Shown here: positions 2,851-19,162 of the stretch, piece after piece | Position numbering within the stretch: the first letter of the stretch is position 1 | Layout of the letters: every line of letters starts with the position of its first letter | Origin: a virus | Taxonomy: Duplodnaviria > Caudoviricetes | IMG/VR virus record: IMGVR_UViG_3300001782_000010 | Location: 1-55,670 of that record | Reading direction: 5' to 3' (one strand) | DNA length: 55,670 nt | Made by a program: the position numbers and the translations under genes | The notes under the pieces: generated by a model | What the model was told of the DNA's origin: nothing | Database searches by the model: none | The model's input: only the letters and a program-made list of their open reading frames with translations

Positions 2851-4230
2851 GTGAGGGAAAGAATAATGTCTAGCTTTAGTCCGTTTATTAGAGATCTTGA
2901 AAGACTTAGTGAAAAAAAGATAATAAATAAAAAAGAAAGAAAAGTTCTTGTAAAAGTTAGTGGAGAGAAAGATAGATATCTTAAAGTTAAACATCTTATT
3001 GAAGCTGCTGCACAAAGAATAGAAAGTAAGATAAGACCTAAAGTATTTAGACTTCTTTATCAATCTGAAGAAACTATTTTTGGACTGGTTAATAAAATAA
3101 ATATAGATGTTATTGGACCAGGTTTTAGTATTATTCCAGATCCTGATGTAGAACCAAATGATAAAGAATTATTGGAAACAGCTAAAAAAGAAGCTAAAGA
3201 AGTTGAGATATGGTCAAAATCAAAATATATTAAACTTAAAAGAAAAAGTTCAATAGCTTTTACAGACACTTTAGTTTATGGAAGAGGGTTTTTAGAACTA
3301 TGTTATAATTATAATAAAGATAATATTCTTTTAATACATTCAATTGATCCTGAAGATATGAGATATCAAACTAAAAAAACTAGTGGAGAAGTATTATTAG
3401 ATAAATATGGAATGCCTGAAGGATATGTGTATAAAGAATATCAAGGACAAAAAGAACTAAAATTATTTAGAAATGAAATAGCACATTTTAAGATGTGGGG
3501 TCTTGGTGAACCATCTATTGGTTTAAGTCCTTTAGAACCTTTATATAATGTATTAAAAGCTAAAATGAATATAGAAGAAGCTTTGGCTGAAGCGATCTAT
3601 AGAAGAGCATTTCCTTGGATAGTAGCATATTGTGGAGACAAAGATCATGAACCAACTATGGAACAAATTGATGAATTGCACAAAGCTATTTCAGAAATAG
3701 AACAAAAAACAGAATTTACATTTCCTTATTATTTTAAACTAGACAAATTAGAACCAGGTGGAGTAGAAGAACTAGCTACTTATCATAAAATATATTCTGA
3801 TTTAATTTACAATACATATCTTATGCCTAGAGGAATAATTACTGGAGGAAGAAAGACAGAAGTAGAGAAAGGAAGTCTTCAATGGGAAAGAAGTATTTTA
3901 AATTATCAAGAAATACTTTCTGAAATAATTCAAGAACAGATACTTGATAGATTATATGAAGTAAAACATTATAAAACAAGACCTAGAATTGTATGGAATA
4001 TTGTTACTCCTCAACATCAGACAGCATATGATAGATCTATAGCTACTCTCTTTAGGCATGGTGCAATAAAGTATGGTTTTGATACAGACAATTATTTGAG
4101 AAAGATGCATAATCTTCCTTTAATAAATGAAGAAGATATTGACGTTAATGAACAGTCTTTAAATATAATAGCTAAAAAAATTGCAGAATATATTAAAAAT
4201 ATTGAAGGTTCAGACGAAGAAAAAGAATAG
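2851..4230 (+). CDS. Portal protein
   Basis: Portal-like motifs DTLVYGRGFLE, IDPEDM, EIAHFK and GLSPLEP; 459 aa. Confidence 0.85.
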   Translation: MRERIMSSFSPFIRDLERLSEKKIINKKERKVLVKVSGEKDRYLKVKHLIEAAAQRIESKIRPKVFRLLYQSEETIFGLVNKINIDVIGPGFSIIPDPDVEPNDKELLETAKKEAKEVEIWSKSKYIKLKRKSSIAFTDTLVYGRGFLELCYNYNKDNILLIHSIDPEDMRYQTKKTSGEVLLDKYGMPEGYVYKEYQGQKELKLFRNEIAHFKMWGLGEPSIGLSPLEPLYNVLKAKMNIEEALAEAIYRRAFPWIVAYCGDKDHEPTMEQIDELHKAISEIEQKTEFTFPYYFKLDKLEPGGVEELATYHKIYSDLIYNTYLMPRGIITGGRKTEVEKGSLQWERSILNYQEILSEIIQEQILDRLYEVKHYKTRPRIVWNIVTPQHQTAYDRSIATLFRHGAIKYGFDTDNYLRKMHNLPLINEEDIDVNEQSLNIIAKKIAEYIKNIEGSDEEKE

Positions 4231-4279: not shown

Positions 4280-6022
4280 ATGAAGTTGTCATATAATGCT
4301 ATTAACATTCTAAAAGAAAGATATTTAATAAAAGATGAGAACGGTGATGTTCAGGAAGATCCTTTATCTTTATTTAAAAGAGTTGCTAAAGAGATAGCTG
4401 AAGTAGAAAAGAAATATAATAAAAATGATGAGTATATTAAAAATCTTGAACAGTCTTTTTTAAGCATGATGTCTAATTTAGAATTTTTACCTAATTCTCC
4501 TACTCTTATGAATGCAGGTACATCTCTTAATCAACTTTCAGCTTGTTTTGTTATTCCTATTGAAGATAGTATGGAAAGTATATTTCAAGCTGTTAAAGAT
4601 GCATCTATCATTCATAAATCTGGAGGAGGTACAGGATACTCTTTTTCTAGACTTAGACCAAAAGACGATATAGTTAAAAGCACAGGTGGAATAGCTTCTG
4701 GACCAATATCATTTATGACAGTTTTTGATGCTGCAACTAATGTTATTAAACAGGGAGGAAGAAGAAGAGGAGCTAACATGGCTATTTTAAGAGTAGATCA
4801 TCCTGATATTTTAGATTTTATAGTAGCTAAAGAAAGAGAAGGTAATTTATCTAATTTTAATCTATCAGTTGCTATAACTGATAAATTTATGAAAGCTGTT
4901 CTAAACGATAAAGATTATGATATTGTTAATCCTAGAAATAAAAGAGTAACTAAAAGATTAAAAGCTAGAGCAGTATGGAATCTTTTAATTACTATGGCTT
5001 GGAAGAATGGAGAACCAGGTGTAGTATTTATAGATAGAATAAATAAGTTTAATCCTACTCCAAGTATTGGAGAAATAGAATCAACTAATCCTTGTGCAGA
5101 ACAACCTTTACTTCCATATGAATCATGTAATCTTGGATCTATTAATTTAAATAAAATGGTAGAAGGTAACAGGATCAGTTGGATTAAATTAAGAGAAATA
5201 GTACATTTATCTGTAAGATTTCTTGATAATGTTATTGATGCTAATTCTTATCCTTTAGAAATAATTGGAGAACAAACAAGAGGAAATAGAAAAATAGGTC
5301 TAGGAGTTATGGGATTTGCTGATATGTTAATAAAACTTGACATTCCATATAATTCAGATAAAGCAATTAATTTAGCTAAAAAAATTATGAAATTTATTAA
5401 TGATGAAGCTAGAAATATTTCAGAACAGATTGGAAAAGAAAAAGGTTCGTTTCCAAACTTTGATAAAAGTGCTTTAAAAAATAAATATAAAACAATGAGA
5501 AATGCTACTGTTACTACTATTGCACCAACAGGAAGTATTTCTATTATAGCAAATTGTTCTTCTGGTATTGAACCTCTTTTCTCTCTTGTTTATGTACGAA
5601 AATTGTCTGAAAGTATAGGAAAAGATCTAATAGAAATTAATTCTTTATTTAAGAATAAATTAGAAGAAAAAGAACTTTATTCTACTGAACTTATAAATAA
5701 AATATCCAGTAAGACTTCTATTCAAGGTGAGAATCTTCCTGTAGATATTAAAGAATTATTTATTACAGCACATGATATTTCTCCTGAAGAACATATAAAA
5801 ATACAAGCTGCCTTTCAACAATATACAGATAATGCTGTAAGTAAAACAGTAAATTTTCCTAAGACTGCTACAATTAACGATATTGAAAACACATTCTTAC
5901 TTGCATACAATCTAGGATGTAAGGGAGTAACAGTATATAGAGATAAATCTAGGAAATTACAAGTTCTAGATAGAATAGACTCTAAAACTTGTGAAGGAGG
6001 AATATGTCCAATATGCAGTTAA
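4280..6022 (+). CDS. nrdJ: Class II (adenosylcobalamin-dependent) ribonucleotide reductase
   Basis: NSPTLMNAG, LSACFV, GGGTG, TNPCAEQ, CNLGSINL, IAPTG and a C-terminal cysteine cluster (CEGGICPICS); no beta subunit gene nearby. Confidence 0.92.
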   Translation: MKLSYNAINILKERYLIKDENGDVQEDPLSLFKRVAKEIAEVEKKYNKNDEYIKNLEQSFLSMMSNLEFLPNSPTLMNAGTSLNQLSACFVIPIEDSMESIFQAVKDASIIHKSGGGTGYSFSRLRPKDDIVKSTGGIASGPISFMTVFDAATNVIKQGGRRRGANMAILRVDHPDILDFIVAKEREGNLSNFNLSVAITDKFMKAVLNDKDYDIVNPRNKRVTKRLKARAVWNLLITMAWKNGEPGVVFIDRINKFNPTPSIGEIESTNPCAEQPLLPYESCNLGSINLNKMVEGNRISWIKLREIVHLSVRFLDNVIDANSYPLEIIGEQTRGNRKIGLGVMGFADMLIKLDIPYNSDKAINLAKKIMKFINDEARNISEQIGKEKGSFPNFDKSALKNKYKTMRNATVTTIAPTGSISIIANCSSGIEPLFSLVYVRKLSESIGKDLIEINSLFKNKLEEKELYSTELINKISSKTSIQGENLPVDIKELFITAHDISPEEHIKIQAAFQQYTDNAVSKTVNFPKTATINDIENTFLLAYNLGCKGVTVYRDKSRKLQVLDRIDSKTCEGGICPICS

Positions 6023-6129
6023 TGAAATGTTATAGTTGTGGTAAACTAATGACTATAGATGAAGTTATAGAATATGGTAGAAAATGTAAAATCTGTAGAC
6101 GTACAGAAGAAATTACAGGGGAAATATAA
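6022..6129 (+). CDS. Zinc-ribbon microprotein (35 aa)
   Basis: Not in the ORF track. MKCYSCGK...KCKICRR; exactly fills the gap between nrdJ and the eS30-like gene. Confidence 0.6.
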   Translation: MKCYSCGKLMTIDEVIEYGRKCKICRRTEEITGEI

Positions 6130-6327
6130 ATGCCTTCACATGGTTCTTTAACAAAAGCTGGAAGAGTTATAAAGTCTAGAGACTGGAGAATTGAAGACAA
6201 AAAATATGAAAAAGGAATTAAAAGATGGCATAAGAAAAAACATTATAGTCCAAAATTAAATAACAGAAAGAAATATAATAGATATCTTCAAAAATTGATT
6301 CATGTTCATAAACAAGTTAAAATCTAG
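6130..6327 (+). CDS. rps30e: Ribosomal protein eS30 (S30e) homolog
   Basis: MPSHGSLTKAGRV matches the archaeal eS30 N-terminus (HGSLTKAGKV); C-terminal SPKLNNRKKYNR matches the P-R-x-x-N-R-x-x-Y pattern. Confidence 0.8.
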   Translation: MPSHGSLTKAGRVIKSRDWRIEDKKYEKGIKRWHKKKHYSPKLNNRKKYNRYLQKLIHVHKQVKI

Positions 6328-6366
6328 ACATACTTTTATACACCATTATATTTATTATATTCAGAG

Positions 6367-7113
6367 GTGTATTTATTGACAGAAACTTGGGATCTTTTAA
6401 ATCAATTGTGGTTTTCATTATCTGGATGGAACAAAGTAGGGAGCGGTACAAGTGAAATAAATCCTCCTGGTCAGTTACATCAACAAGGAACTGGATTATC
6501 AAGTGTCGGTAGAACTAAAACTCTTGCTTCTGGATTACCTTCAGAATATACTATTGAAGTCCGTTTAAAAATAACTCAAGCTTTTCCTAGTCTTCGTTGG
6601 ACATATGAATTTTATGATGGTGAACATCGCATTGTACTTCAAATATGGAATAATAAAATTCGAAGTACTTATGGTATAGATTTTCAAGATATTATCTGTC
6701 AAAATGAACAAAATATTTTTTATATATGGCGTTTTGTAATAAACTCTAAAGAAAATGAAATAAAAGTTTACAGGGACTTTGAATATCTAGGCATATTTAC
6801 TCGTCTAGAAGATGATGCAAGTAATGATGGAAAAATATGGACCAGAGCCATGTTTTATCTTGAAGGTTATGAAGATTATATTAAAATAAAATCTGGGTTA
6901 CATCCTCCTTCTCTTCATGATAAAGGTTCTAAATATTCATTTATAATTTCTAAGCTTCATCCTTATTCTGCTTTAGTTTTTTTAAAAGAAAAATATCAAG
7001 CTCCAATATTTATAAAAGATAAAGAATATAATGCATTCATATCTTTGAAAAATAAATATAAAGGTAATGTAAGAAAAAAATATTATTATAGAGGGAGAGT
7101 ACAATTACAATAG
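6367..7113 (+). CDS. Putative virion fibre protein with a beta-sandwich/lectin-like domain
   Basis: Clear paralogy with the C-terminal domain of 23924..26797 (GSGTSEINPPGQLHQ vs GDGTSEIYPPSQLHQ; YEDYIKIKSG vs YEDYLRIKSG). Confidence 0.55.
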   Translation: MYLLTETWDLLNQLWFSLSGWNKVGSGTSEINPPGQLHQQGTGLSSVGRTKTLASGLPSEYTIEVRLKITQAFPSLRWTYEFYDGEHRIVLQIWNNKIRSTYGIDFQDIICQNEQNIFYIWRFVINSKENEIKVYRDFEYLGIFTRLEDDASNDGKIWTRAMFYLEGYEDYIKIKSGLHPPSLHDKGSKYSFIISKLHPYSALVFLKEKYQAPIFIKDKEYNAFISLKNKYKGNVRKKYYYRGRVQLQ

Positions 7114-7123
7114 AGGGAGAATC

Positions 7124-7480
7124 ATGACAGACAATACACTTACAATATTTAAGGGAGATAATGTTACATTATTTGTTCAAATTACTGAATCAGATGCTTC
7201 TGCAGATATTTCAGGTTTCAGTTTTATATTCACTGTTAAAGACAATATTTCTGAACCACAATTAAATGCTGAAATAATTAAATCTTCTGATATTGCTTCA
7301 GAGATAACTTTGATAAATCCATCTATAGGAGAAATTGAGATATATATTCTTCCAAACGATACTAAAAATTTAAGTGGAGAAGGAAGATTTTATTATGATA
7401 TTCAAATGACTACAGCTACTGGAGAAATATATACTATAGTACAAGATTATATTTTTATTAAAGAGGATGTTACAAAATGA
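7124..7480 (+). CDS. BppU-N-like / Ig-like virion adaptor protein
   Basis: TIFKGDNVTL...GEIEIYILPNDT...YYDIQMT...IFIKEDVT pattern typical of phage BppU N-terminal-like domains. Confidence 0.6.
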   Translation: MTDNTLTIFKGDNVTLFVQITESDASADISGFSFIFTVKDNISEPQLNAEIIKSSDIASEITLINPSIGEIEIYILPNDTKNLSGEGRFYYDIQMTTATGEIYTIVQDYIFIKEDVTK

Positions 7481-7581
7481 TATGTCCAAAATGTAAAAAA
7501 GAAATGATAGAACTTATAGTTGGATATTATTGTAAAAAATGCCAAATCTTTAAGAAAAAGGAGGGAAAAATATATGTCTAA
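7477..7581 (+). CDS. Zinc-ribbon microprotein (34 aa)
   Basis: Not in the ORF track. MICPKCKK...YYCKKCQ; ATGA overlap. Confidence 0.6.
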   Translation: MICPKCKKEMIELIVGYYCKKCQIFKKKEGKIYV

Positions 7582-7696
7582 CTTTACTATTCATTGTGGT
7601 CATAAAGAACTTCAGGTGGAAAGAATAAGAGTTACTATCCGTTGTAAAGAATGTGGATTTTCATATTCTTTTAATTTAGATGTTAAGAAGGAATAA
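7574..7696 (+). CDS. Zinc-ribbon microprotein (40 aa)
   Basis: Not in the ORF track. HCGHK...RCKECG; GGAGGG SD; ends 2 nt before the next start. Confidence 0.55.
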   Translation: MSNFTIHCGHKELQVERIRVTIRCKECGFSYSFNLDVKKE

Positions 7697-7698
7697 AT

Positions 7699-10635
7699 AT
7701 GCCGATAAGCAAGAAGTATTTAAAAGTTCTTAGATCAATGGTTTCTCAGTATTGTACATCTAAATATGGAGCAGATGGAAGAAGAGATAAATATGTACAG
7801 GGAATACATACATGTCCTAAAGCTAGACAGGTCTTTTATGCTAAAATGAGAAAAGAAGGGATAGATTATAGATTATCTGAATTATTAGAATTATTACATT
7901 CTAGAATTAAATGTTTTGAATGTAATCAACCTCCAACTATAGATGTCCTTTGGGCTGAAGGAATGGCTAGATGCTGGTTCTGTGATAAACATTTTGAAGA
8001 ATGGAAGAAAAAGAAATTTAAGATTAATGATCAAGTGGTAACTTATGGAAGTGAAATAAATAAAGTAAGAAAAGTTAAAGATGGAGAAGTACCTAAGAAA
8101 TGGTCAGACTGGTATAAATTATCTCTTGACACATTAGATATTGACCCTTTAAAGCCAAAGATATTTCCATCTAAAAAAATAGAAGAAATGAGTAATATAG
8201 AATTAGAATATGTACATGCATTAGTACATTCTATCAAACCTAAATTGTTTACTAAAGAATGTGGTTTACATTATAAAATAGTTAAAGAAATGACAAAAAG
8301 AAATTATTTACACATGTTTAAAGAAGGATATTTATGTGATAGAATAATTGAATGGGGAATTAAAGACTGGAAAACTTATAATCCTAAAAATATATCTGAT
8401 GCTGTTTTAAGAGATGATTGGAGAATAGTACATGCTTGGATGAAACTTGTCTGTCAAAAAGGAAAGAAATTAGAAAGTATACAATTTAAAGAATACTCTT
8501 TAGAACAACAGAAGAAAATAATAGGAGATTTAAGAGATAAAATAAGAAAGGAAATGATTGAAAGAGGATGGCAGCCTAAGAAATTATCTTTTAAACTTCC
8601 TTCTGGAATGAATATTGAAGATATTGATCCTCCATTTATTATGAATTTAAAAGATAAAGATCTTATTAGTTTATATAAATTTTTACATCAAGAATATAAG
8701 AAGCGAGGAAAAGTAACTGAAGATATATCTAATGCTAACATATTTATTGGTTTAGAACTTGTTAGAAGAAGACTTTATAATAAAAATAAAATTGATGACG
8801 ATCTTACAAAAGAGACTGAACTTGAAATAAGAGAATATCCAACACCAGAAGGATTCCCTAGGAAAGAACAGTCTTTAGAATGGAAAGAAATAGAGAAGAG
8901 AGGATATATTACTTTAGAAGATGTTCTTTCTGTTTTACCTGACCAGTTGATTATTAAAGGTACCGTTGAAAAACCAGTATCAATATATCTTATTGGAAGA
9001 ATTGTTAATGTTAAGAAAGTACCTTTAGATCATGATATAGACGTTCTTTTTAAAACAGAATTTATAGATCCTAAATTATTATATTCATTTTACGCTAGTA
9101 TACCAGTATGGTTATCTAAAATATTACATCCTGTTCCAGATATAAATGGACCAGAAATAGGTAATGCAATATTAATATATGAACCAGGAAATTATTTTTC
9201 ACATCCTAGCAGATTATCCTTTTCTATCAAAGTAGGAAGATCATTTGTTGGACTTAAAGCTAAATCAGGATTTCATAAATATGAGTTCTGGGATATTGAT
9301 GAAGCATATAAAAAAGCTGTTTCTCAGTATATTAGTAGAGGTCTAATTATAGATAAAAAATATGATGGTAGAAGATTTCAGATTCATTATGATAAAAGTG
9401 AAGGAATATTTAAAATTATTACTGAAGATCAACAGAGAGATAGAGCAGGAGCATTACCAAATATTTCTTCTGAGATAAAATCGTTTCTAGATAAGAAAGG
9501 AATTAAAAATGTTATATTAGATTCTGAAGCAGTAGCATATGATTGTACAGGAAAGAAAGTTAAAAATAAAGAAGACCTGTGTGATTTTATAGATAGAGAA
9601 AAAACAGCATGGTTAACTGTTGGAACGATTAGTTCAGAACAGGAAGAATCTGTTGTATTTCATGTACATGATATTTTATATTTAAATGATAAAACAGTCA
9701 ATGAATTGGGATATATAGATAGACAGAGATTATTTAGAAAATTAATAGGTGTAGGTACTCCTCATCTTCAGGTTGTTAAAAGTACAACTGCAGATAATGT
9801 TAAACAATTTATATCTGCTGTTAAAAGAATGAGATCCCTTCCTGGTTCAGAAGGTGTAATGATTAAAGTAAGTGACAGTAAATATAGAATAAAATATTCA
9901 GGAGAGAATAGAACATCTGAATGGATAAAAATCAAGAATCTTAAAGAAATAGATGTAATGGTATGGGAAAGAGTACCTATGAAGAGAAAAGAAACAGGTG
10001 AACCAACTGGAGCATTTAGGTATGAATCAGTATTTGAAATACCAAGTAATAAAAAAGGACAGTTTAGAGAAAGTGATATAGTTGAACATAAAGGAAAAAT
10101 ATATGCTAAAATAGGTCTAACATATGCTACTAATGATAGAAATAAAAGAGGAGATATTATAAGTGTTAGACAAATTAGGATTAGAAAAGATTATGATAAA
10201 AATAATAAAGTCTACTATACTTGGATGTTTCCTTTTTATGCTGGTAAAAGAACAGATAAGAAAGAACCTGATACTTTAACTACAGTAGATAGACTTGAAA
10301 GAATTGGTACTAAACCATTAGAAAGGAACAGTCTAGAAAGATGGTACAAAGATACTTTCAGAGAAGAACTAAAGTATAAAGAAATAATGGAAAGAATTAC
10401 TGATGAAAACATAGAAGATTATTTAGATTCAGATACCATAATTATATCTTTAAACAAATGTCCTTTCTATGATAAAACAAAAATATGTCCTTTCAGGGAA
10501 CGATTTAAAGGACCATATTTAACGAAAGTGTTAGAACAATACTTGGAATTTCCAATAAAATGTCATTTTGCTGATATGTTTATATGTAGATATGTCAAGA
10601 AATATTATTATCCATATAAAATAATAGAGATTTAA
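7699..10635 (+). CDS. Multidomain protein: zinc finger, helical repeats, Pol-beta-like nucleotidyltransferase-like domain and ATP-dependent DNA ligase
   Basis: Ligase motifs I KKYDGRR, III ILDSEAV, IIIa FHVHDILY, IV SEGVMIK and V WIKIK, followed by an OB-like region; NTase-like IYLIGRIV...HDIDVLF; CFEC/CWFC zinc finger. Confidence 0.85.
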   Translation: MPISKKYLKVLRSMVSQYCTSKYGADGRRDKYVQGIHTCPKARQVFYAKMRKEGIDYRLSELLELLHSRIKCFECNQPPTIDVLWAEGMARCWFCDKHFEEWKKKKFKINDQVVTYGSEINKVRKVKDGEVPKKWSDWYKLSLDTLDIDPLKPKIFPSKKIEEMSNIELEYVHALVHSIKPKLFTKECGLHYKIVKEMTKRNYLHMFKEGYLCDRIIEWGIKDWKTYNPKNISDAVLRDDWRIVHAWMKLVCQKGKKLESIQFKEYSLEQQKKIIGDLRDKIRKEMIERGWQPKKLSFKLPSGMNIEDIDPPFIMNLKDKDLISLYKFLHQEYKKRGKVTEDISNANIFIGLELVRRRLYNKNKIDDDLTKETELEIREYPTPEGFPRKEQSLEWKEIEKRGYITLEDVLSVLPDQLIIKGTVEKPVSIYLIGRIVNVKKVPLDHDIDVLFKTEFIDPKLLYSFYASIPVWLSKILHPVPDINGPEIGNAILIYEPGNYFSHPSRLSFSIKVGRSFVGLKAKSGFHKYEFWDIDEAYKKAVSQYISRGLIIDKKYDGRRFQIHYDKSEGIFKIITEDQQRDRAGALPNISSEIKSFLDKKGIKNVILDSEAVAYDCTGKKVKNKEDLCDFIDREKTAWLTVGTISSEQEESVVFHVHDILYLNDKTVNELGYIDRQRLFRKLIGVGTPHLQVVKSTTADNVKQFISAVKRMRSLPGSEGVMIKVSDSKYRIKYSGENRTSEWIKIKNLKEIDVMVWERVPMKRKETGEPTGAFRYESVFEIPSNKKGQFRESDIVEHKGKIYAKIGLTYATNDRNKRGDIISVRQIRIRKDYDKNNKVYYTWMFPFYAGKRTDKKEPDTLTTVDRLERIGTKPLERNSLERWYKDTFREELKYKEIMERITDENIEDYLDSDTIIISLNKCPFYDKTKICPFRERFKGPYLTKVLEQYLEFPIKCHFADMFICRYVKKYYYPYKIIEI

Positions 10636-10646
10636 GTTGATAAATA

Positions 10647-11339
10647 ATGTTACTAAAAAATAGTTACAATAAGTCAATATATATTATTAGAGAAGCTAGA
10701 ACAAGATTTACAAATTTAGCATTGATGTGGGGAGGAGGAAAAGATAGTACTTTAATGTTATATTTAACTAAAGAAGCTTTATATAATAATCTTCCATCAA
10801 TTATATTTCTTGATACTACATTTGCTTTTAGAGAAACTAAAGAATACATAAGAATTATATCTAAATTATGGAATTTTAATTTGATATATTTTCAGAATAG
10901 AGAAGCATTATCAAAAGGAATTAATCCTTGGAACTATTCTAAAATAGAATGTTGTACAAAATTAAAAACAGACGCTTTAAACCAATGTATACAAAAATAC
11001 AACTTTGATGGATTAATGTTTGGTATTAGATGGGATGAACATCCAATAAGGGGGAAAGAAAAATATTTTAGTTCTAGAGATGTTCCTTGTCATATGAGAG
11101 TACATCCAATATTACACTGGTCAGAAGAAGATGTCTGGAGATTTATAAAAAAATATAATATTCCTTATAATCCATTATATGATAGAATTATTAATGATAA
11201 AAAATATAAGTCTATAGGGTGTTATCCATGTACAAAACCTATTTCTCAAGAAGAATATTTAGAACTTGGAGAAAGAGGAGGAAGATCTTTAGATAAAGAA
11301 AAAATTATGGAGAGACTTCGTTCTCTAGGATATATGTGA
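10647..11339 (+). CDS. PAPS-reductase-family protein, CysD (sulfate adenylyltransferase small subunit)-like
   Basis: GGGKDS PP-loop, LDT, ECC, GIRWDE, RVHPILHW, SIGCYPCT and a C-terminal ERGGR...LGYM. Confidence 0.8.
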   Translation: MLLKNSYNKSIYIIREARTRFTNLALMWGGGKDSTLMLYLTKEALYNNLPSIIFLDTTFAFRETKEYIRIISKLWNFNLIYFQNREALSKGINPWNYSKIECCTKLKTDALNQCIQKYNFDGLMFGIRWDEHPIRGKEKYFSSRDVPCHMRVHPILHWSEEDVWRFIKKYNIPYNPLYDRIINDKKYKSIGCYPCTKPISQEEYLELGERGGRSLDKEKIMERLRSLGYM

Positions 11340-11340
11340 A

Positions 11341-11865
11341 ATGAAAATACATAATAAAATAAATCCTAGAAGTATATATACTTCTAAATATTTTGAAAAA
11401 GCTACTAAGACTTCTCATTTTGAATATATTAAATGGGCAATGTATCTGAAGAAATATCCAGATCCTATGTTAGAATTAGGATGTTATAAAGGAGAATTAG
11501 TTAAAGAATTACAATTAAGAAAAAAAGAAACATATGGTGTTGATTCTTCAAACTATGCTATTCAAAATATTATTTGCAAAGATATTCTTCAAGCTGATGC
11601 ACACTTTTTACCTTTTAAAAACAATTTTTTTGGTACAATATTCTCTTTTCAATTTTTAGAACATTTAAGTGTACCAGATATCTGCCTTAAAGATTGCTAC
11701 AGAATTTTAAGATCTGAAGGATATTTTCTAGCTAAATGGGGATGGGGACAAGATATTACTCATTTATCTGATCTTCGAGATGGATGGATAGGAAAACTTA
11801 AAAGATATTTTAAATATATTAAATATCATCAAGGTTTGTATGTCTTTCAGAAGGTAGACAAATGA
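11341..11865 (+). CDS. Class I SAM-dependent methyltransferase
   Basis: LELGCYKG, GVDSS, ADAHFLPF, FLEHL, RILRSEG. Confidence 0.85.
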   Translation: MKIHNKINPRSIYTSKYFEKATKTSHFEYIKWAMYLKKYPDPMLELGCYKGELVKELQLRKKETYGVDSSNYAIQNIICKDILQADAHFLPFKNNFFGTIFSFQFLEHLSVPDICLKDCYRILRSEGYFLAKWGWGQDITHLSDLRDGWIGKLKRYFKYIKYHQGLYVFQKVDK

Positions 11866-12851
11866 AGATATTAGTAACTGGTGGTGCAGGATTTATAGGT
11901 TCATATTTAACTGAATATCTATTAGGAAAAGGACATGAAGTAATAGTATGGGACGATTTAAGCACAGGAAGACAAGATAATTTAAAGAATGTTTATTCAA
12001 ATAAAAATTTACAGATGATAAAAGAAAATATTCTTAATTATTATACTCTAGAAAGTGGAAGTAAAGGCTGTGATATTATTTTTCATCTTGCTGCTCAATT
12101 AGAAATATTAGAAATGATGGATGATCCTTCTATAGATTTAACAGTTAATGGACAGGGAACATTGAATGTCTTAGAAGCTGCAAAAACAAATAAAGTTAAG
12201 AAAGTAGTATTTGCTAGTACATGTGGAGTATATGGAGAACCTAAATATATTCCTGTAGACGAAAAACATGTCCTTGAACCTCAGTGGCATTATGGAGCAT
12301 CAAAAATATTAGGAGAGAAATATTGTGGAGTTTATAGTAAATTATATAATATTCAGACAATTATTCTAAGATATGGTTATATTTATGGTCCAAGAGAATG
12401 GTTTGGAAGAGTTCATACCAGATTTATTAATAGAATACTAGATAATAAAAATCCTCTGGTATTTGTTCCAGGTACTCAAACTAGAGATTTCCTTAATGTT
12501 ATTGATTGTGCAAGAATAACAGCTGAACTAGGGTTAAGATGTATTCCGTCTTCTATTTTCAATGTAAGTTCAGGAAATAAAATAACTATTTCTAAACTAG
12601 CTAAATTATTAATAGAGATTTCAAATAAAGATCTAGAAATTAAAATGATAAATCCTGAACCTTACAAGATGGGAAGAAAACCATGTGAATTAAAACATGT
12701 ACAGTTAGATATTAACAAATTAAAACATTATATTGATGATCAAATTATTGATTTATATGACGGACTTGTTTCTGAATATGAATGGGCTAAAAAATATAGA
12801 CATATATATTGGAGAAATGCTGATGAGAAATATAATGATTTTATGTATTGA
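11862..12851 (+). CDS. NAD-dependent nucleotide-sugar epimerase/dehydratase (extended SDR)
   Basis: TGGAGFIG, HLAA, YGASK, TRDF. Confidence 0.92.
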   Translation: MKILVTGGAGFIGSYLTEYLLGKGHEVIVWDDLSTGRQDNLKNVYSNKNLQMIKENILNYYTLESGSKGCDIIFHLAAQLEILEMMDDPSIDLTVNGQGTLNVLEAAKTNKVKKVVFASTCGVYGEPKYIPVDEKHVLEPQWHYGASKILGEKYCGVYSKLYNIQTIILRYGYIYGPREWFGRVHTRFINRILDNKNPLVFVPGTQTRDFLNVIDCARITAELGLRCIPSSIFNVSSGNKITISKLAKLLIEISNKDLEIKMINPEPYKMGRKPCELKHVQLDINKLKHYIDDQIIDLYDGLVSEYEWAKKYRHIYWRNADEKYNDFMY

Positions 12852-13617
12852 TGGATTAGATCCAATTCTGGCTAGAGACTGTAAACTTGAATTTTTAAGA
12901 AGTATAGGAGATATTCAAGAAATAATAACTGGTAAAGATACTGGTGAAACTGTCTCTTATATATTCTCTGATAATATAGTTGATATGACTGAACATAGTA
13001 ACTATAACATTAAATCACATGAATTATTATGGAATAAAATTAATTGTAAATGGGGAATAGGAAATGTACCAACTATTCCAGTATTAAAAATATTTGGATG
13101 GTCTATTGTAGGATATTTTCGTCCTGGATCTTATCTTGCATATCCTTATTATATTGAAGATTATTTACGTTCAATAAATTATGAAGTTGATATACCAGTT
13201 AAAATAGGAGAATACTTGTTTTCACATTTACATTATCCTAGAATAATTAATAAAAGAACTAAAGCATTTAATTATTTATTAAAGGAATATCCTGTTGAAA
13301 TAGCATTTTTATGGTATAGATGTTTAGATGGAATTAATCATGAATATTGTATTGGTCCAGAAAAGAACATTGAAAAAATTTTAAAATGGTATGAAAGATT
13401 AGATTATGAAATATCAAAATTAAATACAAAGTTTGAAAAAATAATAATTTTTTCTGATCATGGTGTACCATCATATGCAGGTATATTTAAAAGATTAAAA
13501 GATAAACCTCATAGAGCAAAAGGAATATTTTTAAATAATATGAAATATAAAATAAAACATATTAGAGAACTTTATTACCTTATAGAAGAATTAGCTAAAG
13601 ATATTAAAGGAATTTAA
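12733..13617 (+). CDS. Alkaline phosphatase superfamily (nucleotide pyrophosphatase/sulfatase-like) protein; true start probably near 12817-12823
   Basis: ILCIDGLD, LDGINH, FSDHG, H-x-x-x-G-I-F. Confidence 0.75.
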   Translation: MMIKLLIYMTDLFLNMNGLKNIDIYIGEMLMRNIMILCIDGLDPILARDCKLEFLRSIGDIQEIITGKDTGETVSYIFSDNIVDMTEHSNYNIKSHELLWNKINCKWGIGNVPTIPVLKIFGWSIVGYFRPGSYLAYPYYIEDYLRSINYEVDIPVKIGEYLFSHLHYPRIINKRTKAFNYLLKEYPVEIAFLWYRCLDGINHEYCIGPEKNIEKILKWYERLDYEISKLNTKFEKIIIFSDHGVPSYAGIFKRLKDKPHRAKGIFLNNMKYKIKHIRELYYLIEELAKDIKGI

Positions 13618-13618
13618 A

Positions 13619-14572
13619 ATGAATATTGTATTTCTAGCTCTATATAATTCTGGAGGAATATTTGGTACTTTAACAAAGGCAATAAATAAATATACTGAAC
13701 ATCATGCAGATTTTATTTTAAAGAAAAGACATAGATATAAATTTGATTATGATATTTGTGAAACTGAAGGATACAAAAGAGAAGATGGAAACTCTTTTAA
13801 TAATGAAGATATTAAAAGAATATTGAATAATGCTGATGTAATTCATAGAAATATGTGTGCTGGTAGATTTTCTAGAATATTTGGAATAAATATAGAACCA
13901 TATTTCAATAATGTTAAAACTAGAGCCTTTCATTTTTCAGGATATGAACTTAGAAATCAGCCTGGAAGATGGGATCACTTGAAGGGAATAAAAATAGTAG
14001 ATAATTTGGATTTATTACAGTATATAAAGAATGGACACTGGCTTCCTAATCCAGTTCCTACTAATAATAAATTATATACTCCAGATCCTTTTAGATCCAT
14101 TTATACTTTAAGATTTTGTACTGATATTTCTGTACCTTCTAAATGGGGAGGACATAAAGGACTTAGCTTATATGCTGATATAATCAAAGACAAGATAAGA
14201 AAGTATAATAGTAAAGTTAGTTTAGACATTATTAATGAAGTAACTAGAAATGAATGTCTAGAAAGAAAAAGAAAATGTCATGTTTATGCAGGAGAATTAT
14301 TTTTACCTAATTATGAAAATTCAGTATTAGAATGTACTAGTCAGTCTTTAGTTATTATTAATAAACATATACTTCATCCTGAAATATATAATAATCCTCC
14401 ATTCATATTTATAGAAAAGAAAGATTTGGATAAAACAATAGAAAAGTTAATTAATACTCCAATGAAAGAAATATTTAATATAGGAAGAAAGACTAGAGAA
14501 TGGTGTGTATCATTTCATGATGATAAAATAGTAATTAAGAAATTAATATCGTTATATGAGGAATATAAATGA
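13619..14572 (+). CDS. Putative GT-B glycosyltransferase
   Basis: LPNPV, HKG, YENSVLEC and a C-terminal 'R..V..FH....V...L...Y' pattern of GT-B enzymes. Confidence 0.65.
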   Translation: MNIVFLALYNSGGIFGTLTKAINKYTEHHADFILKKRHRYKFDYDICETEGYKREDGNSFNNEDIKRILNNADVIHRNMCAGRFSRIFGINIEPYFNNVKTRAFHFSGYELRNQPGRWDHLKGIKIVDNLDLLQYIKNGHWLPNPVPTNNKLYTPDPFRSIYTLRFCTDISVPSKWGGHKGLSLYADIIKDKIRKYNSKVSLDIINEVTRNECLERKRKCHVYAGELFLPNYENSVLECTSQSLVIINKHILHPEIYNNPPFIFIEKKDLDKTIEKLINTPMKEIFNIGRKTREWCVSFHDDKIVIKKLISLYEEYK

Positions 14573-14814
14573 AAATAAAAGTTAAAAAACATTTTAGAAA
14601 TAATACAGAAGGATATGAATATTGGGAATATGATCATTTAAATAAAAAATGTACAAAGTGTTGTTTCTGTGGACTAGATAAAGGAGATAGAAAATTATTG
14701 TTATATCATGCTTGTACAGGAGAAGAAGAACATGCTGTTCAATGTCCTGAAATGTCTACATGTTTTGGAATGTTAGTTAAGAAAAGAACAAGTGAGATAA
14801 AAAATGATAAGTAA
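14569..14814 (+). CDS. Small cysteine-rich protein
   Basis: CTKCCFC plus three further Cys; overlaps both neighbours. Confidence 0.5.
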   Translation: MKIKVKKHFRNNTEGYEYWEYDHLNKKCTKCCFCGLDKGDRKLLLYHACTGEEEHAVQCPEMSTCFGMLVKKRTSEIKNDK

Positions 14815-15805
14815 CAAATATTCATATACCGCTGCTGGGATATTTCCTGCTAAATTATTAATACATCAAAAATTAAATGATTATACTAGAAAGTTTGGAA
14901 AAATATTTCCTATCCATATTCAATTAAATCCAACCAATAGATGTAATTTTAACTGTTTCTTCTGTTCTTGTGCAGGAAGAAAAAGAAATATAGAATTATC
15001 ATATAATGAAATTTATGATATTATGACCAAGTCAAAACAAGTTGGAGCAGAATCTGTAACTATCACAGGTGGAGGAGAACCTTTGATGCACAGAAAAATT
15101 CAAGAGATTATTCTTTCAATTGACCTTTTAGGAATTCAAATTGGTTTAGTTACAAATGGGACTTTATTAAAAAATCTTTCAACAGAAACTTTAGATAAAA
15201 TAGTCTGGTGTAGAATATCTTCTGGAGATAATGTGGAATATAGTAAATATGGAATGGGAAATGAAAAGTATAGAGATATGTTGGAAGAAATAGTTAATAG
15301 ATCTAATAAAACTGATTGGGCATTTAGTCATGTTCTATCTAGAGATCCAAATTATTATACTTTAGAACATGTTGTTAAATTTGCTAATAAACATAATTTT
15401 ACTCATGTAAGAATAGTGTCTGATCTTTTAGATCTAAAATATGTACCTAACATGAAAATTATAAAAGAACATTTAAGAAAAAGAAATATTGATGATAGTA
15501 AAGTCTTTTATCAAGGAAGAAAAGATTTTACTAGAGGAAAAAATCCTTGTTATATAAGTATTCTAAAACCAATAGTAGGAGCAGATGGTTGGATATATCC
15601 TTGTTGTGGTACACAATATGCTCTTAAAAATCCTTCAAAAGATTATGAATTTAGTATGAGGATGTGTAAAGCTACTGAAATTGATAAATTATATGAAGAA
15701 CAGAAATTTTTTGATGGTTCAGTTTGTGCAAGATGTTATTATCAGAACTATAACTGGGCTTTAGGTGTAATGTTATCTAAAATAGATCATGAGAAATTTG
15801 TATGA
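14804..15805 (+). CDS. Radical SAM protein with SPASM/Twitch-like C-terminus
   Basis: CNFNCFFC (CxxxCxxC), TGGGEP, VTNG, DGWIYPCC, CARC. Confidence 0.9.
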   Translation: MISNKYSYTAAGIFPAKLLIHQKLNDYTRKFGKIFPIHIQLNPTNRCNFNCFFCSCAGRKRNIELSYNEIYDIMTKSKQVGAESVTITGGGEPLMHRKIQEIILSIDLLGIQIGLVTNGTLLKNLSTETLDKIVWCRISSGDNVEYSKYGMGNEKYRDMLEEIVNRSNKTDWAFSHVLSRDPNYYTLEHVVKFANKHNFTHVRIVSDLLDLKYVPNMKIIKEHLRKRNIDDSKVFYQGRKDFTRGKNPCYISILKPIVGADGWIYPCCGTQYALKNPSKDYEFSMRMCKATEIDKLYEEQKFFDGSVCARCYYQNYNWALGVMLSKIDHEKFV

Positions 15806-16668
15806 AAGTAAATGTTGTAACTGTTAGTTCTGGATGGATCTTAGAAAAAATAGCTGATAGATTAATAGAGAACAATAATAAATTAAACACAAAAATGGAA
15901 ATGAGAAAATGTTATCAGCCAAATAATAAAGCAGATATTAATTATTATATTGATATTTACAACTGTTTCTGGAATAAATCTAAAATTAAAGATGTAGGAT
16001 ATTTTACTCATTTAGACAAAGATTCTGACAAAAGTTTTGAAGATCATTGGAAGTTATTAGATTATATAGTTCATAAAAATAGTTATTATTTAGATAGAAC
16101 AGCTAAATGGGGATATCCTAGAGAAAAGATGAAAGTAATAGTACCTCCAATAGATACTGAACAGTTTCATTTAAAGAAAATAACACTTGGGATAATTCAA
16201 AGAGGATATTATATTGGAAAAGGTCATCAGTTCATGCTTGATCTTCCTAAATATATTAATCTTAAAAACTTTAGATTTTTATTTATTGGACAAGGTTGGG
16301 ATCAAGTCTGTTCAGAATATAATAAAAGAAAAATTGCTTTTATGTATACTAGAAACGAGGATTATAATTTGTACAGGAAATATTATGAAATTATAGATTA
16401 TTTATTAGTTCCTTCTTTATGGGAAGGTGGACCAATGTGTATTCTAGAAGCTTTATCATGTGGTATTCCAATAATATCTAGTAAAGTAGGATTTGTACAT
16501 GATTTTAAGATTGATCATGTATTTGAACCAAACAATTATAAACAATTGATTAAGATTTTAAAAAATATAGAAAAAGAGAAACTGGAAAGAAGAGAACAAC
16601 TTAAAAATATCAATTGGAACAATTATATATTGGAACTATATAATATATTTAAAGAGGTTTTAAATTGA
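15802..16668 (+). CDS. GT4 family glycosyltransferase
   Basis: VPSLWEGGPMCILEALSCGIPIISSKVG (EX7E motif). Confidence 0.88.
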   Translation: MKVNVVTVSSGWILEKIADRLIENNNKLNTKMEMRKCYQPNNKADINYYIDIYNCFWNKSKIKDVGYFTHLDKDSDKSFEDHWKLLDYIVHKNSYYLDRTAKWGYPREKMKVIVPPIDTEQFHLKKITLGIIQRGYYIGKGHQFMLDLPKYINLKNFRFLFIGQGWDQVCSEYNKRKIAFMYTRNEDYNLYRKYYEIIDYLLVPSLWEGGPMCILEALSCGIPIISSKVGFVHDFKIDHVFEPNNYKQLIKILKNIEKEKLERREQLKNINWNNYILELYNIFKEVLN

Positions 16669-17099
16669 AAATAAATCTCGGATCAGGAAAAGATTATAGA
16701 AATGGGTTTGTTAATATAGAGAAAAATACTTTACTTAAAGCAGATATTCATTTAGATCTAGAAAAAGATAGATTACCTTTTAAAGATAGTTCGGTTGATT
16801 TTATTTTAATTAAACATACTCTGGAACATATTACTAATATTGTACATTTATTGAATGAATGTCATAGAATATTAAAGAAAGATGGAAATATACATATTGA
16901 AGTACCAAATGTAGCACACCCACAAGGAATTATAAGTGCATTTGGAGATATTTTTCATGTAAGATGTTTTAGTCCTTTTACTTTTACTATGCTTGGAGGA
17001 AGTTCAGACGATTACAGATTTAACAATCTTAAACCTTGGAATTTAATCAAATTAAGTTCTAATAGAGATATTATAGCTATTTTATCTCCTAGGAAATGA
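16665..17099 (+). CDS. SAM-dependent methyltransferase (type 11-like)
   Basis: INLGSG, LPFKDSSVD, HTLEH, ECHRILKKDG. Confidence 0.85.
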   Translation: MKINLGSGKDYRNGFVNIEKNTLLKADIHLDLEKDRLPFKDSSVDFILIKHTLEHITNIVHLLNECHRILKKDGNIHIEVPNVAHPQGIISAFGDIFHVRCFSPFTFTMLGGSSDDYRFNNLKPWNLIKLSSNRDIIAILSPRK

Positions 17100-17103
17100 T
17101 GAT

Positions 17104-17550
17104 ATGATTAAATTAAATTTAGGATGTGGAGCTAGATATCTTCAAGGATTTATAAATATTGATATTGACAGATCTTACAAAGCAGATCTATATCTTGATT
17201 TTGAGAGAGATGTTTTACCATATCAAGATAATTCTATAGATTATATTATAGCTATTCATACTTTAGAACATATTAATAATATATGGGATCTTTTAAATGA
17301 ATGTCATAGAGTTCTTAAACCAAACTGTATATTAGAAGTTGAAGTACCAAATATAGCTAATATTCCACAAGGATTATTAGATTCTGTAGAAAGTATGTCA
17401 CATATAAGATTTTTTGTACCTTCATCTTTTAAAACTATGACTACTGCAGGAACAAAAGCAGGAATAAAATATAATAAATTAAAAAGATGGAAGATAATAG
17501 AAATAAAACATAATAGAGCTATACATGTTAGGATGGTGCCTATAAAATGA
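17104..17550 (+). CDS. SAM-dependent methyltransferase, tandem paralog of 16665..17099
   Basis: LNLGCG, HTLEH, ECHRVLKP, EVPN shared with the upstream gene. Confidence 0.85.
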   Translation: MIKLNLGCGARYLQGFINIDIDRSYKADLYLDFERDVLPYQDNSIDYIIAIHTLEHINNIWDLLNECHRVLKPNCILEVEVPNIANIPQGLLDSVESMSHIRFFVPSSFKTMTTAGTKAGIKYNKLKRWKIIEIKHNRAIHVRMVPIK

Positions 17551-18185
17551 GGATATTAATAGTTACTCCAGCTAGAAGCTTTCAAGATGTTCATATTAAA
17601 GTTATGGAAGGAATAAGATCTTTAAATCTAGGAGAACATATAGTAGATTGGATATTACTTACTGAACAAAAATATAAAGGAACTGATCAAGGAAGTAGAG
17701 AAGGAAACTTAAGGTTAAAATTAGAATATGGCAGAAAAATATTTCTAGAAAATAACTATGACAAAATGATGATAGTAGAAAGTGATAATGTAATTCCAAG
17801 TCACACTTTACTGGATTTAATTAAAACTCCAGGAGATATTTCAGCTACTTTAATAATGGATAGACCAAGTATGGTACATGGACAGTATGAATGGAATTTA
17901 GTAAGGCAGACTGGTTCAGCATTCAATAAAAATGCTTTAGAATTAATTAGAAAGAAAGAACCATTTATAATAACTGGTGCAACAGGTTATCATTGTATAA
18001 TGATAGATAGAAAAGTTCTAGAAAAAACAGAATTTAAAGCTACTGATATTCATTCTTATATTAACTGGAGAGGATTAGGATTTCAGATATATTGTAATCC
18101 TCTTATTAATGTTGGACATCTAGATCATAAAAAGATCTATAAGAAAGAAATAGATGGAGAAAAAGTGATAATATTTGAAGCCTAG
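17547..18185 (+). CDS. GT-A fold (GT2-like) glycosyltransferase
   Basis: ILIVTP, IVESDNVIP (ExD), GYHCIMIDRKVLEK, C-terminal VGH. Confidence 0.7.
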   Translation: MRILIVTPARSFQDVHIKVMEGIRSLNLGEHIVDWILLTEQKYKGTDQGSREGNLRLKLEYGRKIFLENNYDKMMIVESDNVIPSHTLLDLIKTPGDISATLIMDRPSMVHGQYEWNLVRQTGSAFNKNALELIRKKEPFIITGATGYHCIMIDRKVLEKTEFKATDIHSYINWRGLGFQIYCNPLINVGHLDHKKIYKKEIDGEKVIIFEA

Positions 18186-18579: not shown

Positions 18580-18580
18580 A

Positions 18581-19159: not shown

Positions 19160-19162
19160 AAT

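What the first reader, a model, noticed from the sequence alone, without database searches (positions are those of the whole stretch)
6130..6327. Virus-encoded ribosomal protein eS30 homolog with a remodelled middle segment
Seen: MPSHGSLTKAGRV...SPKLNNRKKYNR. The usual 'RxQTPK' segment is replaced by a longer insert (IKSRDWRIEDKKYEKGIKRWH). Established: eS30 lies near the decoding centre and mRNA entry channel of the small subunit. Phage-encoded ribosomal proteins I know of are mostly bacterial types such as bS21 and bL12, and I know of no eS30 from an archaeal virus (not verified). Inference: it could replace host eS30 to bias late translation, or be repurposed as a basic nucleic-acid-binding protein.
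Basis: partly seen in the sequence, partly recalled or inferred. Interest (0 to 1): 0.8.

Follow-up and report, generated by a model that had tools for sequence, protein, structure and literature searches.

The report
Archaeal virus gene for altered eS30
A tailed virus from marine sediment carries its own intact but altered copy of the small ribosomal protein eS30, which suggests, without proving it here, that the virus changes its host's ribosomes.

Summary
The ORF at 6130-6327 (+) is real and is a true but divergent homologue of archaeal eS30. A profile-profile comparison with cellular eS30 gives 99.5% probability. The single protein stays below both curated cut-offs (Pfam 12.8 of 27 bits, NCBIfam 33.2 of 75 bits).

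It keeps the N-terminal tail: 12 of 13 residues match eS30 of a solved archaeal ribosome. It also keeps the C-terminal P-x-x-N-R-x-x-Y anchor. It has lost the Q-T-P-K motif and is 11 residues longer in the middle.

The contig is a tailed-virus fragment. The gene has the virus's own composition, and no assembly break lies at it.

Similar "long-middle" forms lie on three related viral records, one of them complete. They were not found in 401 Thermoproteota genomes.

The most likely mechanism, which is inferred, is that the protein takes the eS30 site on host small subunits.

The main open rival is that the long form is native to an unsampled host lineage. I could not reach Asgard or DPANN genomes.

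I found no archaeal-virus eS30 in the searchable papers. This scan has noted viral eS30 genes before on other DNA.

The parts
6130..6327 (+). Gene for a 65-aa, very basic (pI 10.7; 21 K+R) divergent eS30 homologue of the long-middle type
   Evidence: ORF. NCBIfam NF006817 E 3.4e-8, 33.2 bits. PDB 9fhl_e E 3.2e-5. hhalign 99.5% against cellular eS30. Composition and pI.
6130..6168 (+). Residues 1-13: conserved N-terminal tail. In cellular eS30 this tail reaches helix h44 and the A site.
   Evidence: 12 of 13 residues identical to 9fhl_e. M1, G5, K9 and G11 are invariant, and P2, H4, S6 and L7 are conserved in at least 90% of the 14 family members. The role of the tail is taken from passages of PMC11698992.
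6169..6249 (+). Residues 14-40: remodelled middle. The Q-T-P-K motif is lost, the net gain is 11 residues, and the segment includes an aromatic residue (W19) and a W-H-K-K-K-H stretch.
   Evidence: Alignments. Spacing counts.
6250..6324 (+). Residues 41-65: conserved P-[RK]-x-x-N-R-x-x-Y anchor followed by a predicted helix
   Evidence: P41 is invariant and R46 is conserved in at least 90% of the family; Y49 is conserved in at least 90% in alignments A1 and A3. The AlphaFold2 model shows a helix at 43-63, the best-scored part of a low-confidence model.
6004..6129 (+). 41-aa CxxC...CxxC zinc-ribbon ORF directly upstream. Its stop codon abuts the eS30 start, so the two are probably co-transcribed. 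Context only; a functional link is not shown.
   Evidence: ORF, with weak zinc-finger hits. A small Cys-rich ORF also directly precedes the eS30-like gene in the related viral record G003. I did not test whether the two small ORFs are homologous.
6117..6122 (+). Purine-rich AGGGGA, 7 nt before the ATG: a possible weak Shine-Dalgarno site (inference only)
   Evidence: Read from the sequence. Not tested.

Best explanation
This is a functional viral gene for a divergent paralogue of ribosomal protein eS30. It belongs to a family I call 'long-middle eS30', which is found mainly on archaeal virus contigs.

Shown here: it is homologous to eS30. It keeps the N-terminal tail and the C-terminal anchor and helix. 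It has lost the otherwise near-invariant Q-T-P-K motif and carries about 11 extra residues with family-conserved features. It sits inside a tailed-virus genome with that genome's composition. Relatives of this virus carry the same kind of gene.

Inferred: during infection the protein is built into host small ribosomal subunits at the eS30 site (helix h16, the mRNA entry channel, with the tail reaching h44 at the A site). There it takes the place of host eS30, or competes with it. Its altered middle would then change how those ribosomes take up or decode mRNA, to the benefit of viral messages. The host should therefore be an archaeon whose ribosome uses eS30 (TACK or Asgard).
For: Homology:
- NCBIfam S30e E 3.4e-8.
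- Solved S. solfataricus eS30 chain, E 3.2e-5, with 12 of 13 N-terminal residues identical.
- hhalign of family against cellular profile: 99.5%, E 6e-23, 52 aligned columns.

Viral setting:
- IMG/VR virus record, estimated 51% complete.
- Portal, HK97-type capsid protein and TerL are present.
- Gene GC 26.3% against 28.4% for the window; Lys AAA 12 of 15 and Arg AGA 6 of 6, as in the large genes.
- Logan contigs of two runs cover 4623-9500 and 4623-8829 with 0 differences and even depth.

Conservation in related viruses:
- The window's capsid protein matches G001 (E 4e-54) and G003 (E 1e-26).
- The family profile hits G012 (complete, terminal repeats; 77.8 bits), G003 (71.4 bits) and G001 (38.6 bits).
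- G003 shares a portal, an Mre11-like nuclease and an epimerase with the window, and also has a small Cys-rich ORF directly before its eS30-like gene.

Family mainly off cellular bins:
- In 401 Thermoproteota genomes, 358 have an eS30 match, but the best scores only 38.5 bits.
- 80 of 80 reference-genome eS30 have the short spacing and the motif.
- Of the 24 hits scoring 57 bits or more, 2 come from NCBI, against 40 of the 96 lower hits (my count).
- 0 of the 19 listed members of the ten nearest clusters come from NCBI.
- The nearest ESM Atlas cluster (82 members) is 87% viruses among the 15 members with a known phylum.

Selection:
- The frames are intact, and the same few positions (M1, P2, H4, G5, S6, L7, K9, G11, P41, R46) are kept across proteins only 32-51% identical.

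Role of the kept parts:
- In the S. solfataricus 30S, eS30 lies in the mRNA entry channel and contacts h16, and its Pro2 touches h44. In eukaryotes a conserved His of the tail stabilises A-site pairing (passages of PMC11698992).
Against: - No experiment or RNA data show expression or ribosome binding.
- The single protein fails both curated family cut-offs.
- It lacks a motif that all 80 reference-genome eS30 keep, so it may no longer fit the eS30 site.
- The gene is patchy. Only 3 of the 12 capsid-related viral records searched have it, and only 1 of the 4 that are at least 90% complete. It is therefore dispensable for this virus group.
- The host is unknown. The nearest named cellular relatives of the virus's ribonucleotide reductase (62-65% identity) are from Aenigmarchaeota (DPANN) as well as Bathyarchaeia. 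A review table lists Nanoarchaeota, a DPANN phylum, as lacking eS30 (PMC9932298).
- I could not examine Asgard or DPANN genomes. An earlier unchecked note of this scan says Loki-type archaea have a long cellular eS30 of about 67 aa.
- One long-middle form is labelled as a Thermoprotei MAG protein (P0026). Its 27-kb contig shows no ribosomal genes in the 10 kb I hold.
Confidence: 0.5

Rival explanations
1. Host-type copy. The long middle is the native form of eS30 in the unknown host lineage (for example Loki-type Asgard archaea, or another low-GC sediment archaeon). The virus simply carries a normal host-like eS30, perhaps to raise its supply. It did not remodel it.
For: An earlier follow-up note of this scan, on other DNA, reports a cellular long form of about 67 aa in Promethearchaeia/Lokiarchaeia (unchecked). 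The window's DNA is held by runs labelled marine sediment and seawater metagenome, and its GC is 28%. From my own recall, low GC and this habitat fit Lokiarchaeia. 22 of the 24 best family members carry no organism label.
Against: All five long-middle genes whose surroundings I could read are on IMG/VR viral records (window, G001, G003, G012) or, for L087, on a contig with no ribosomal or housekeeping genes in the 10 kb held. No NCBI-sourced member is in the ten nearest clusters. The nearest Atlas cluster is virus-dominated. None turned up in 401 Thermoproteota genomes. No contig holding a top-24 member exceeds 144 kb, whereas contigs with canonical forms reach 2.8 Mb.
Confidence: 0.2
2. Repurposed protein. 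The eS30-derived protein no longer acts as a ribosome part. Either it blocks the eS30 site or h44 as an inhibitor of host translation, or it serves as a small basic nucleic-acid-binding protein, for example with packaged DNA.
For: It has lost the Q-T-P-K motif that all 80 reference-genome copies keep. It is very basic: pI 10.7, 21 K+R in 65 residues. It lies among portal, nucleotide-metabolism and head genes.
Against: The parts best conserved across the family are the ones that, in solved ribosomes, touch h44 and the A site, together with the C-terminal anchor. A plain DNA-binding role would not need to keep M-P-S-H-G-S-L-x-K-A-G.
Confidence: 0.2
3. Decaying passenger gene. It was picked up from a host by chance and has no function, so the odd middle is drift.
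For: The distribution among related viruses is patchy, and the gene is small.
Against: The frames are intact and motifs are shared in viruses whose capsid proteins are only 29-37% identical. The insert itself has family-wide conserved features. Composition is fully that of the virus. With the insert columns mostly left out, a tree that holds the 45 long forms together is not rejected and scores better than the free search (p-AU 0.909).
Confidence: 0.05
4. Assembly chimera or cellular contamination at this position.
For: None found.
Against: GC is even along the contig. Gene composition equals that of the contig. There are viral genes on both sides. Contigs of a second assembler bridge the gene in two runs with no differences (these runs may be the source sample). 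A related virus (G003) also places its eS30-like gene directly after a small Cys-rich ORF.
Confidence: 0.01

Closest known systems
Cellular archaeal eS30 (S30e; Pfam PF04758, NCBIfam NF006817), e.g. the S. solfataricus chain 9fhl_e described in PMC11698992
   Same: Homologous over its whole length. Same N-terminal tail (12 of 13 residues). Same P-[RK]-x-x-N-R-x-x-Y anchor and C-terminal helix. Small and very basic.
   Different: Lacks the Q-T-P-K motif. The middle is 11 residues longer, with a family-specific aromatic residue and an H-K-K-K-H-like stretch. Scores below both curated cut-offs. Encoded by a virus. Ribosome binding is untested.
Phage- and virus-encoded ribosomal proteins (bS21, bL12, bL9 and others; Mizuno et al. 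2019, PMC6375957); archaeal cases in print: L21e, and bL19 of a Bathyarchaeia virus (PMC10541130)
   Same: A single small ribosomal protein gene embedded among viral genes, conserved among some relatives, and presumed to alter host translation.
   Different: A different protein. This one is specific to TACK/Asgard archaea and eukaryotes and sits at the mRNA entry channel and A site. Here the viral copies form their own altered family rather than near-copies of host genes. In the passages I read, the only viral eS30 is the antisense, untranslated fau copy of a murine retrovirus.
Canonical-type eS30 on another viral record (G002, 77 kb)
   Same: An eS30 gene on an IMG/VR viral contig.
   Different: G002's copy keeps the short spacing and an E-T-P-K-I motif, and it groups with cellular forms in the tree. 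Its record has no match to the window's capsid protein. It looks like a separate acquisition. Apart from the IMG/VR label, I checked its viral nature only through a weak terminase hit (20 bits).

Membership tests
eS30 / S30e (Pfam PF04758; NCBIfam NF006817 equivalog) | Profile match at the curated cut-off | tested here: not met
   Pfam 12.8 bits against 27, E 0.15. NCBIfam 33.2 bits against 75, E 3.4e-8.
eS30 / S30e (Pfam PF04758; NCBIfam NF006817 equivalog) | Common descent with cellular eS30 (homology) | tested here: met
   hhalign of the 14-member family profile against a 25-member cellular profile: 99.5%, E 6e-23. PDB eS30 chain E 3.2e-5.
eS30 / S30e (Pfam PF04758; NCBIfam NF006817 equivalog) | Archaeal N-terminal tail M-P-[ST]-H-G-S-L-x-K-A-G-K-V | tested here: met
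   12 of 13 residues identical to 9fhl_e.
eS30 / S30e (Pfam PF04758; NCBIfam NF006817 equivalog) | Near-invariant R-x-[QAS]-T-P-K-[IV] segment and short (17-19 residue) spacing to the P-R anchor | tested here: not met
   The window has spacing 30 and no T-P-K. 80 of 80 reference-genome copies and 75 of 79 metagenome copies have the motif.
eS30 / S30e (Pfam PF04758; NCBIfam NF006817 equivalog) | C-terminal P-[RK]-x-x-N-R-x-x-Y anchor and helix | tested here: met
   The window reads P-K-L-N-N-R-K-K-Y. P41 is invariant and R46 at least 90% conserved. Helix 43-63 in a low-confidence model.
eS30 / S30e (Pfam PF04758; NCBIfam NF006817 equivalog) | Is a component of the small ribosomal subunit | not testable with these tools
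   Needs ribosome purification or binding assays.
Virus-encoded ribosomal proteins (sense of Mizuno et al. 2019) | Ribosomal protein homologue inside a bona fide viral genome, not a chimera | tested here: met
   A complete relative with terminal repeats (G012) also carries one.
Virus-encoded ribosomal proteins (sense of Mizuno et al. 2019) | Kept by selection in viral lineages | tested here: inconclusive
   Intact frames and conserved positions across proteins 32-51% identical. No dN/dS was possible, because the closest relative (P0002, 51%) has no DNA within reach.

The most novel reading that the evidence does not exclude
A family of virus-made eS30 variants re-fits the mRNA entry channel and decoding site of TACK/Asgard-type ribosomes. 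Infected archaea would then run virus-specified 'specialised ribosomes'. The family arose once and spread among tailed archaeal viruses of differing GC content.
Probability: 0.3. Interest if true: 0.85.

Novelty: new variant of a known kind. Interest (0 to 1): 0.62.

Why it matters
Viral ribosomal proteins are known mostly from phages and are bacterial types. eS30 is shared only by eukaryotes and their closest archaeal relatives, and it sits where mRNA enters the ribosome and where codons are read.

A viral version keeps the ribosome-contacting ends but carries a conserved new middle. That gives a concrete, clonable handle for asking three questions. Can viruses of these archaea reprogram ribosomes? 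What does the little-studied archaeal eS30 do? Which archaea do these uncultured viruses infect? Only hosts whose ribosome has an eS30 site should be affected.

Tried and rejected
- **Pfam DUF4485** (14.1 bits, E 0.047): taken as chance.
- **PHROGs:** no family for the ORF.
- **Word-indexed protein search with the single protein:** found only the protein itself.
- **GenBank phage collection:** no tblastn match for the eS30-like protein (E up to 1) or for the capsid protein.
- **tRNA and Rfam scans of the window:** nothing.
- **eS25, eS26 and AmoC profiles:** no match at E up to 0.01 in the five viral records searched each time (G000, G001, G003, G012 plus G002 or G008). That search's first look is loose. 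It also missed the window's own terminase, which hmmscan finds.
- **Single-protein scans of IMG/VR** with the eS30-like protein, P0002 and the capsid protein: no confirmed relatives. Degenerate DNA patterns and alignments did better.
- **The 55,884-base contig** that probably holds both P0002 and a 78%-identical reductase (P0136) could not be fetched. That they share one contig is inferred only from the equal contig length.
- **Expression:** no RNA holder listed.
- **AlphaFold2 model:** low confidence (mean pLDDT 65.8, pTM 0.29). I did not use it for a fold search.
- **Tree** (149 rows, 53 columns, quick method): poorly resolved, 9 of 145 inner branches starred. It places the long forms in three groups. 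The AU test does not reject one clade, but long branches are in play, so the number of origins stays open.
- **Asgard and DPANN genomes:** That scan could only see copies containing one of six exact 8-residue words of the query, in practice its first eight residues, so it is biased.
- **Rows dropped:** three short capsid-matching contigs (L172-L174, 4-5.6 kb) and the 27 partial capsid matches (L184-L210) were left out.
- **Supplements:** I did not ask for any. Supplementary Fig. 11 of PMC11698992, an eS30 alignment, may bear on the Loki-type question.
- **Papers, what I saw:** passages only of PMC6375957, PMC11698992, 10.1101/2021.07.29.453957, PMC10541130, PMC11499249, PMC9932298 and PMC10380927. 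All others were search listings only.

Full report
**What is there**

The window is one IMG/VR virus record of 55,670 bases, linear, estimated 51% complete. GC is about 28% throughout, and almost all genes lie on the + strand. It encodes:
- a portal protein at 2851-4230 (PHROG 9232, E 2.6e-14);
- an HK97-type major capsid protein at 31995-33062 and a large terminase at 51504-52805 on the minus strand;
- a class II-type ribonucleotide reductase at 4280-6022 and an ATP-dependent DNA ligase at 7699-10635.

The ORF in question, 6130-6327 (+), is 65 codons, ATG to TAG. It starts directly after the stop codon of a 41-aa zinc-ribbon ORF.

**Is it eS30?**

The single sequence scores poorly against Pfam Ribosomal_S30 (12.8 bits, E 0.15, cut-off 27). 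It scores better against NCBI's archaeal S30e model (33.2 bits, E 3.4e-8, cut-off 75).

Against solved structures the best hit is the eS30 chain of an archaeal small subunit (9fhl_e, E 3.2e-5), with 12 of the first 13 residues identical.

An exhaustive phmmer search of 1.84 billion representatives gave only 10 hits at E up to 0.001, all 58-71 aa. I aligned these with the viral copies found later (14 sequences, A4) and compared that profile with a profile of 25 cellular eS30 (A5). hhalign gave 99.5% probability and E 6e-23 over 52 columns. Homology is therefore secure, although the protein does not qualify as an orthodox member by either curated cut-off.

**What is altered**

In that alignment the tail (residues 1-13) and the P-[RK]-x-x-N-R-x-x-Y anchor with the following helix line up with cellular eS30. 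Between them the window's protein lacks the R-x-Q-T-P-K segment, and the family has two insertions of 4 and 9 columns.

I measured the distance from Gly11 to the anchor Pro. It is 30 in the window. It is 17 or 19 in 80 of 80 eS30 genes fetched from reference-genome contigs and in 75 of 79 fetched from metagenome contigs. The motif G-K-V-[RK]-x-x-T-P-[KR] is present in 80 of 80 and in 75 of 79. These sets were selected through words of the query, in practice its first eight residues, so they are not an unbiased sample.

Among proteins returned by the family-profile search, the spacing is two-peaked: 19-21 for those named as cellular S30e, and 25-41 for the high scorers.

**The family and where it lives**

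Degenerate DNA patterns for the N-terminal motif found only three other IMG/VR records besides the window's own: G001 (136 kb), G002 (77 kb) and G003 (65 kb).

The window's capsid protein matches G001 (E 4e-54, 39% identity) and G003 (E 1e-26), but not G002. Its terminase matches G003.

A capsid alignment retrieved 42 viral loci, 15 of them full length. I searched 12 of those records plus G002 with the eS30-family profile. It hit:
- G012, a complete 120.7-kb genome with terminal repeats (77.8 bits);
- G003 (71.4 bits);
- G001 (38.6 bits);
- G002 (29.3 bits).

It hit none of the other nine records, including three that are at least 92% complete. So 3 of 12 capsid-related records, or 4 of 13 with the window, carry such a gene. 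It is an accessory gene that recurs in this virus group, not a core gene.

G003 has a small Cys-rich ORF directly before its eS30-like gene, as the window does. It shares a portal, an Mre11-like nuclease, an epimerase and a glycosyltransferase with the window.

G002's copy is of the ordinary short type and groups with cellular forms. It looks like a separate acquisition.

**Cellular genomes**

In 401 genomes drawn evenly from the phylum of a Thermoproteota reference genome, 358 had a match to the family profile, but the best scored only 38.5 bits. The twelve best that I read are all short canonical forms.

In the word-indexed search with the family profile, 24 of the 120 listed hits score 57-95 bits. 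The rest score 55 bits or less and are typical S30e, many named from Bathyarchaeia, Sulfolobales, Pyrodictiaceae and others. By my count, 2 of those 24 come from NCBI, against 40 of the other 96. None of the 24 sits on a contig longer than 144 kb, while canonical forms sit on contigs of up to 2.8 Mb.

The one labelled long form (P0026, 'Thermoprotei archaeon' MAG) is the protein of locus L087. The 10 kb I hold of its 27-kb contig carries an AAA ATPase, a VWA-like protein and unknowns, and no ribosomal genes.

The ESM Atlas puts both the window's protein and P0005 nearest to a 71-aa cluster of 82 members. That cluster is 87% viruses among the 15 members with a known phylum.

With the insert columns mostly left out, a quick tree places the long forms in three groups. 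One starred group, which includes G012's copy, sits beside Bathyarchaeia-type sequences and shares their S-G-Q-N-W tail. A tree constrained to hold all 45 long forms together is not rejected, and it scores 41.5 log-likelihood units better than the free search (p-AU 0.909). One origin is possible but not shown.

**Not a chimera**

- The gene's GC (26.3%, GC3 18%) lies within the spread of the contig (198-nt windows average 28.4 ± 4.3%).
- Its Lys and Arg codons follow the viral preference.
- Logan contigs of two DNA runs labelled marine sediment and seawater metagenome hold the whole stretch.
- One contig per run covers 4623-9500 or 4623-8829 with no differences, at an even depth of about 8-9.
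- These runs may be the source sample, so this checks the assembly and not the biology.

**Host**

The host is unknown. Passages of PMC11698992 and a table in PMC9932298 report eS30 for TACK and Asgard phyla and not for Euryarchaeota or Nanoarchaeota.

The viral reductase lacks the ATP-cone that its cellular relatives carry. It is 62-67% identical to those cellular enzymes. The named ones, at 62-65%, are from Aenigmarchaeota and Bathyarchaeia. It is 78-84% identical to two unnamed proteins on contigs of 55.9 and 136.4 kb. The 55.9-kb contig probably also holds P0002, the closest eS30-like relative at 51%. No eS25, eS26 or amoC was detected in these viral records.

**How it probably works**

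The following is established for cellular eS30, from passages I read in PMC11698992. It lies in the mRNA entry channel and contacts h16, and its N-terminal Pro2 packs on h44 next to the A site. In eukaryotes a conserved His of the tail stabilises codon-anticodon pairing, and the tail touches eIF1A and eEF2.

The viral family keeps exactly this tail (P2, H4, G5, S6, L7, K9, G11) and the C-terminal anchor. It replaces the segment between them with a longer one that has its own conserved features.

The simplest reading is that the protein still docks at the eS30 site and presents a new surface in or near the mRNA entry channel. I hold this at about 0.5. The steps 'is expressed', 'binds 30S' and 'changes translation' are all inferred.

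**Rivals**

- **Host-type copy:** the long form may be the normal eS30 of an unsampled host lineage. An earlier unchecked note of this scan claims such a form for Loki-type Asgard archaea. I could not test it.
- **Repurposed protein:** it may act as an inhibitor of host translation or as a basic nucleic-acid-binding protein.
- **Decaying passenger gene:** unlikely.
- **Chimera:** rejected.

**Novelty**

- In the passages of Mizuno et al. 2019 that I read, the only viral eS30 is the fau copy of a murine sarcoma virus. PMC11499249 describes that copy as antisense and not translated.
- The 2023 Bathyarchaeia-virus preprint states that only L21e had been seen before in archaeal viruses, and it adds bL19.
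- Five full-text searches combining eS30 or S30e with archaeal or viral terms found no report of an archaeal-virus eS30.
- This scan has itself noted viral eS30 genes on other DNA several times, including a 'long eS30' family. My results agree with that note and were obtained independently here.
- I rate the finding a new variant of a known kind (virus-encoded ribosomal proteins), of good but not top interest, because the function is unproven.

Noticed in passing
window 4280-6022: The viral class II-type ribonucleotide reductase (580 aa) lacks the ATP-cone domain (PF03477) that nearly all of its listed cellular relatives of about 700 aa carry. The named relatives are from Aenigmarchaeota and Bathyarchaeia, at 62-65% identity.
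   Followed up: partly
window 27163-30261: A 1032-aa protein with a sub-threshold LigD 3'-phosphoesterase hit (26 bits against a cut-off of 31.1) and a LAGLIDADG-type hit (24.2 bits against 22.5), suggesting an intein.
   Followed up: no
G003:C1:1921-4194 (loci L165, L166): The large terminase of the related virus G003 matches the window's terminase in two pieces (residues 16-135 and 134-429). The pieces lie about 1 kb apart inside one open 799-aa frame, as expected for an intein in the terminase.
   Followed up: no
proteins P0027, P0028, P0031, P0034, P0037: Some long-middle eS30 forms also carry a basic N-terminal extension of roughly 6-20 residues before the H-G-S motif. Earlier notes of this scan describe such a 'basic head' on other viral elements.
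   Followed up: partly
L088:322-636 and protein P0115: eS30 fused to a C-terminal extension of about 45-50 residues, giving 104 and 95 aa. P0115 has an otherwise canonical eS30 part. L088's copy has an altered middle (spacing 26 by the script). Context unknown.
   Followed up: no
L003 (G002), 4807-5328 minus strand, and its neighbours: The 77-kb viral record with a canonical-type eS30 also has a 703-aa ORF (11092-13203, minus strand) that looked to me like an anaerobic ribonucleotide reductase, and a 173-aa ORF that looked by eye like a TATA-binding protein. Neither was checked with a profile.
   Followed up: no
window 10647-22392: A long run of sugar-modifying genes lies between the ligase and the head genes. 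A PAPS-reductase-like ORF and an NAD-dependent epimerase-like ORF were read by eye. The epimerase and one glycosyltransferase-like ORF have counterparts in G003.
   Followed up: no
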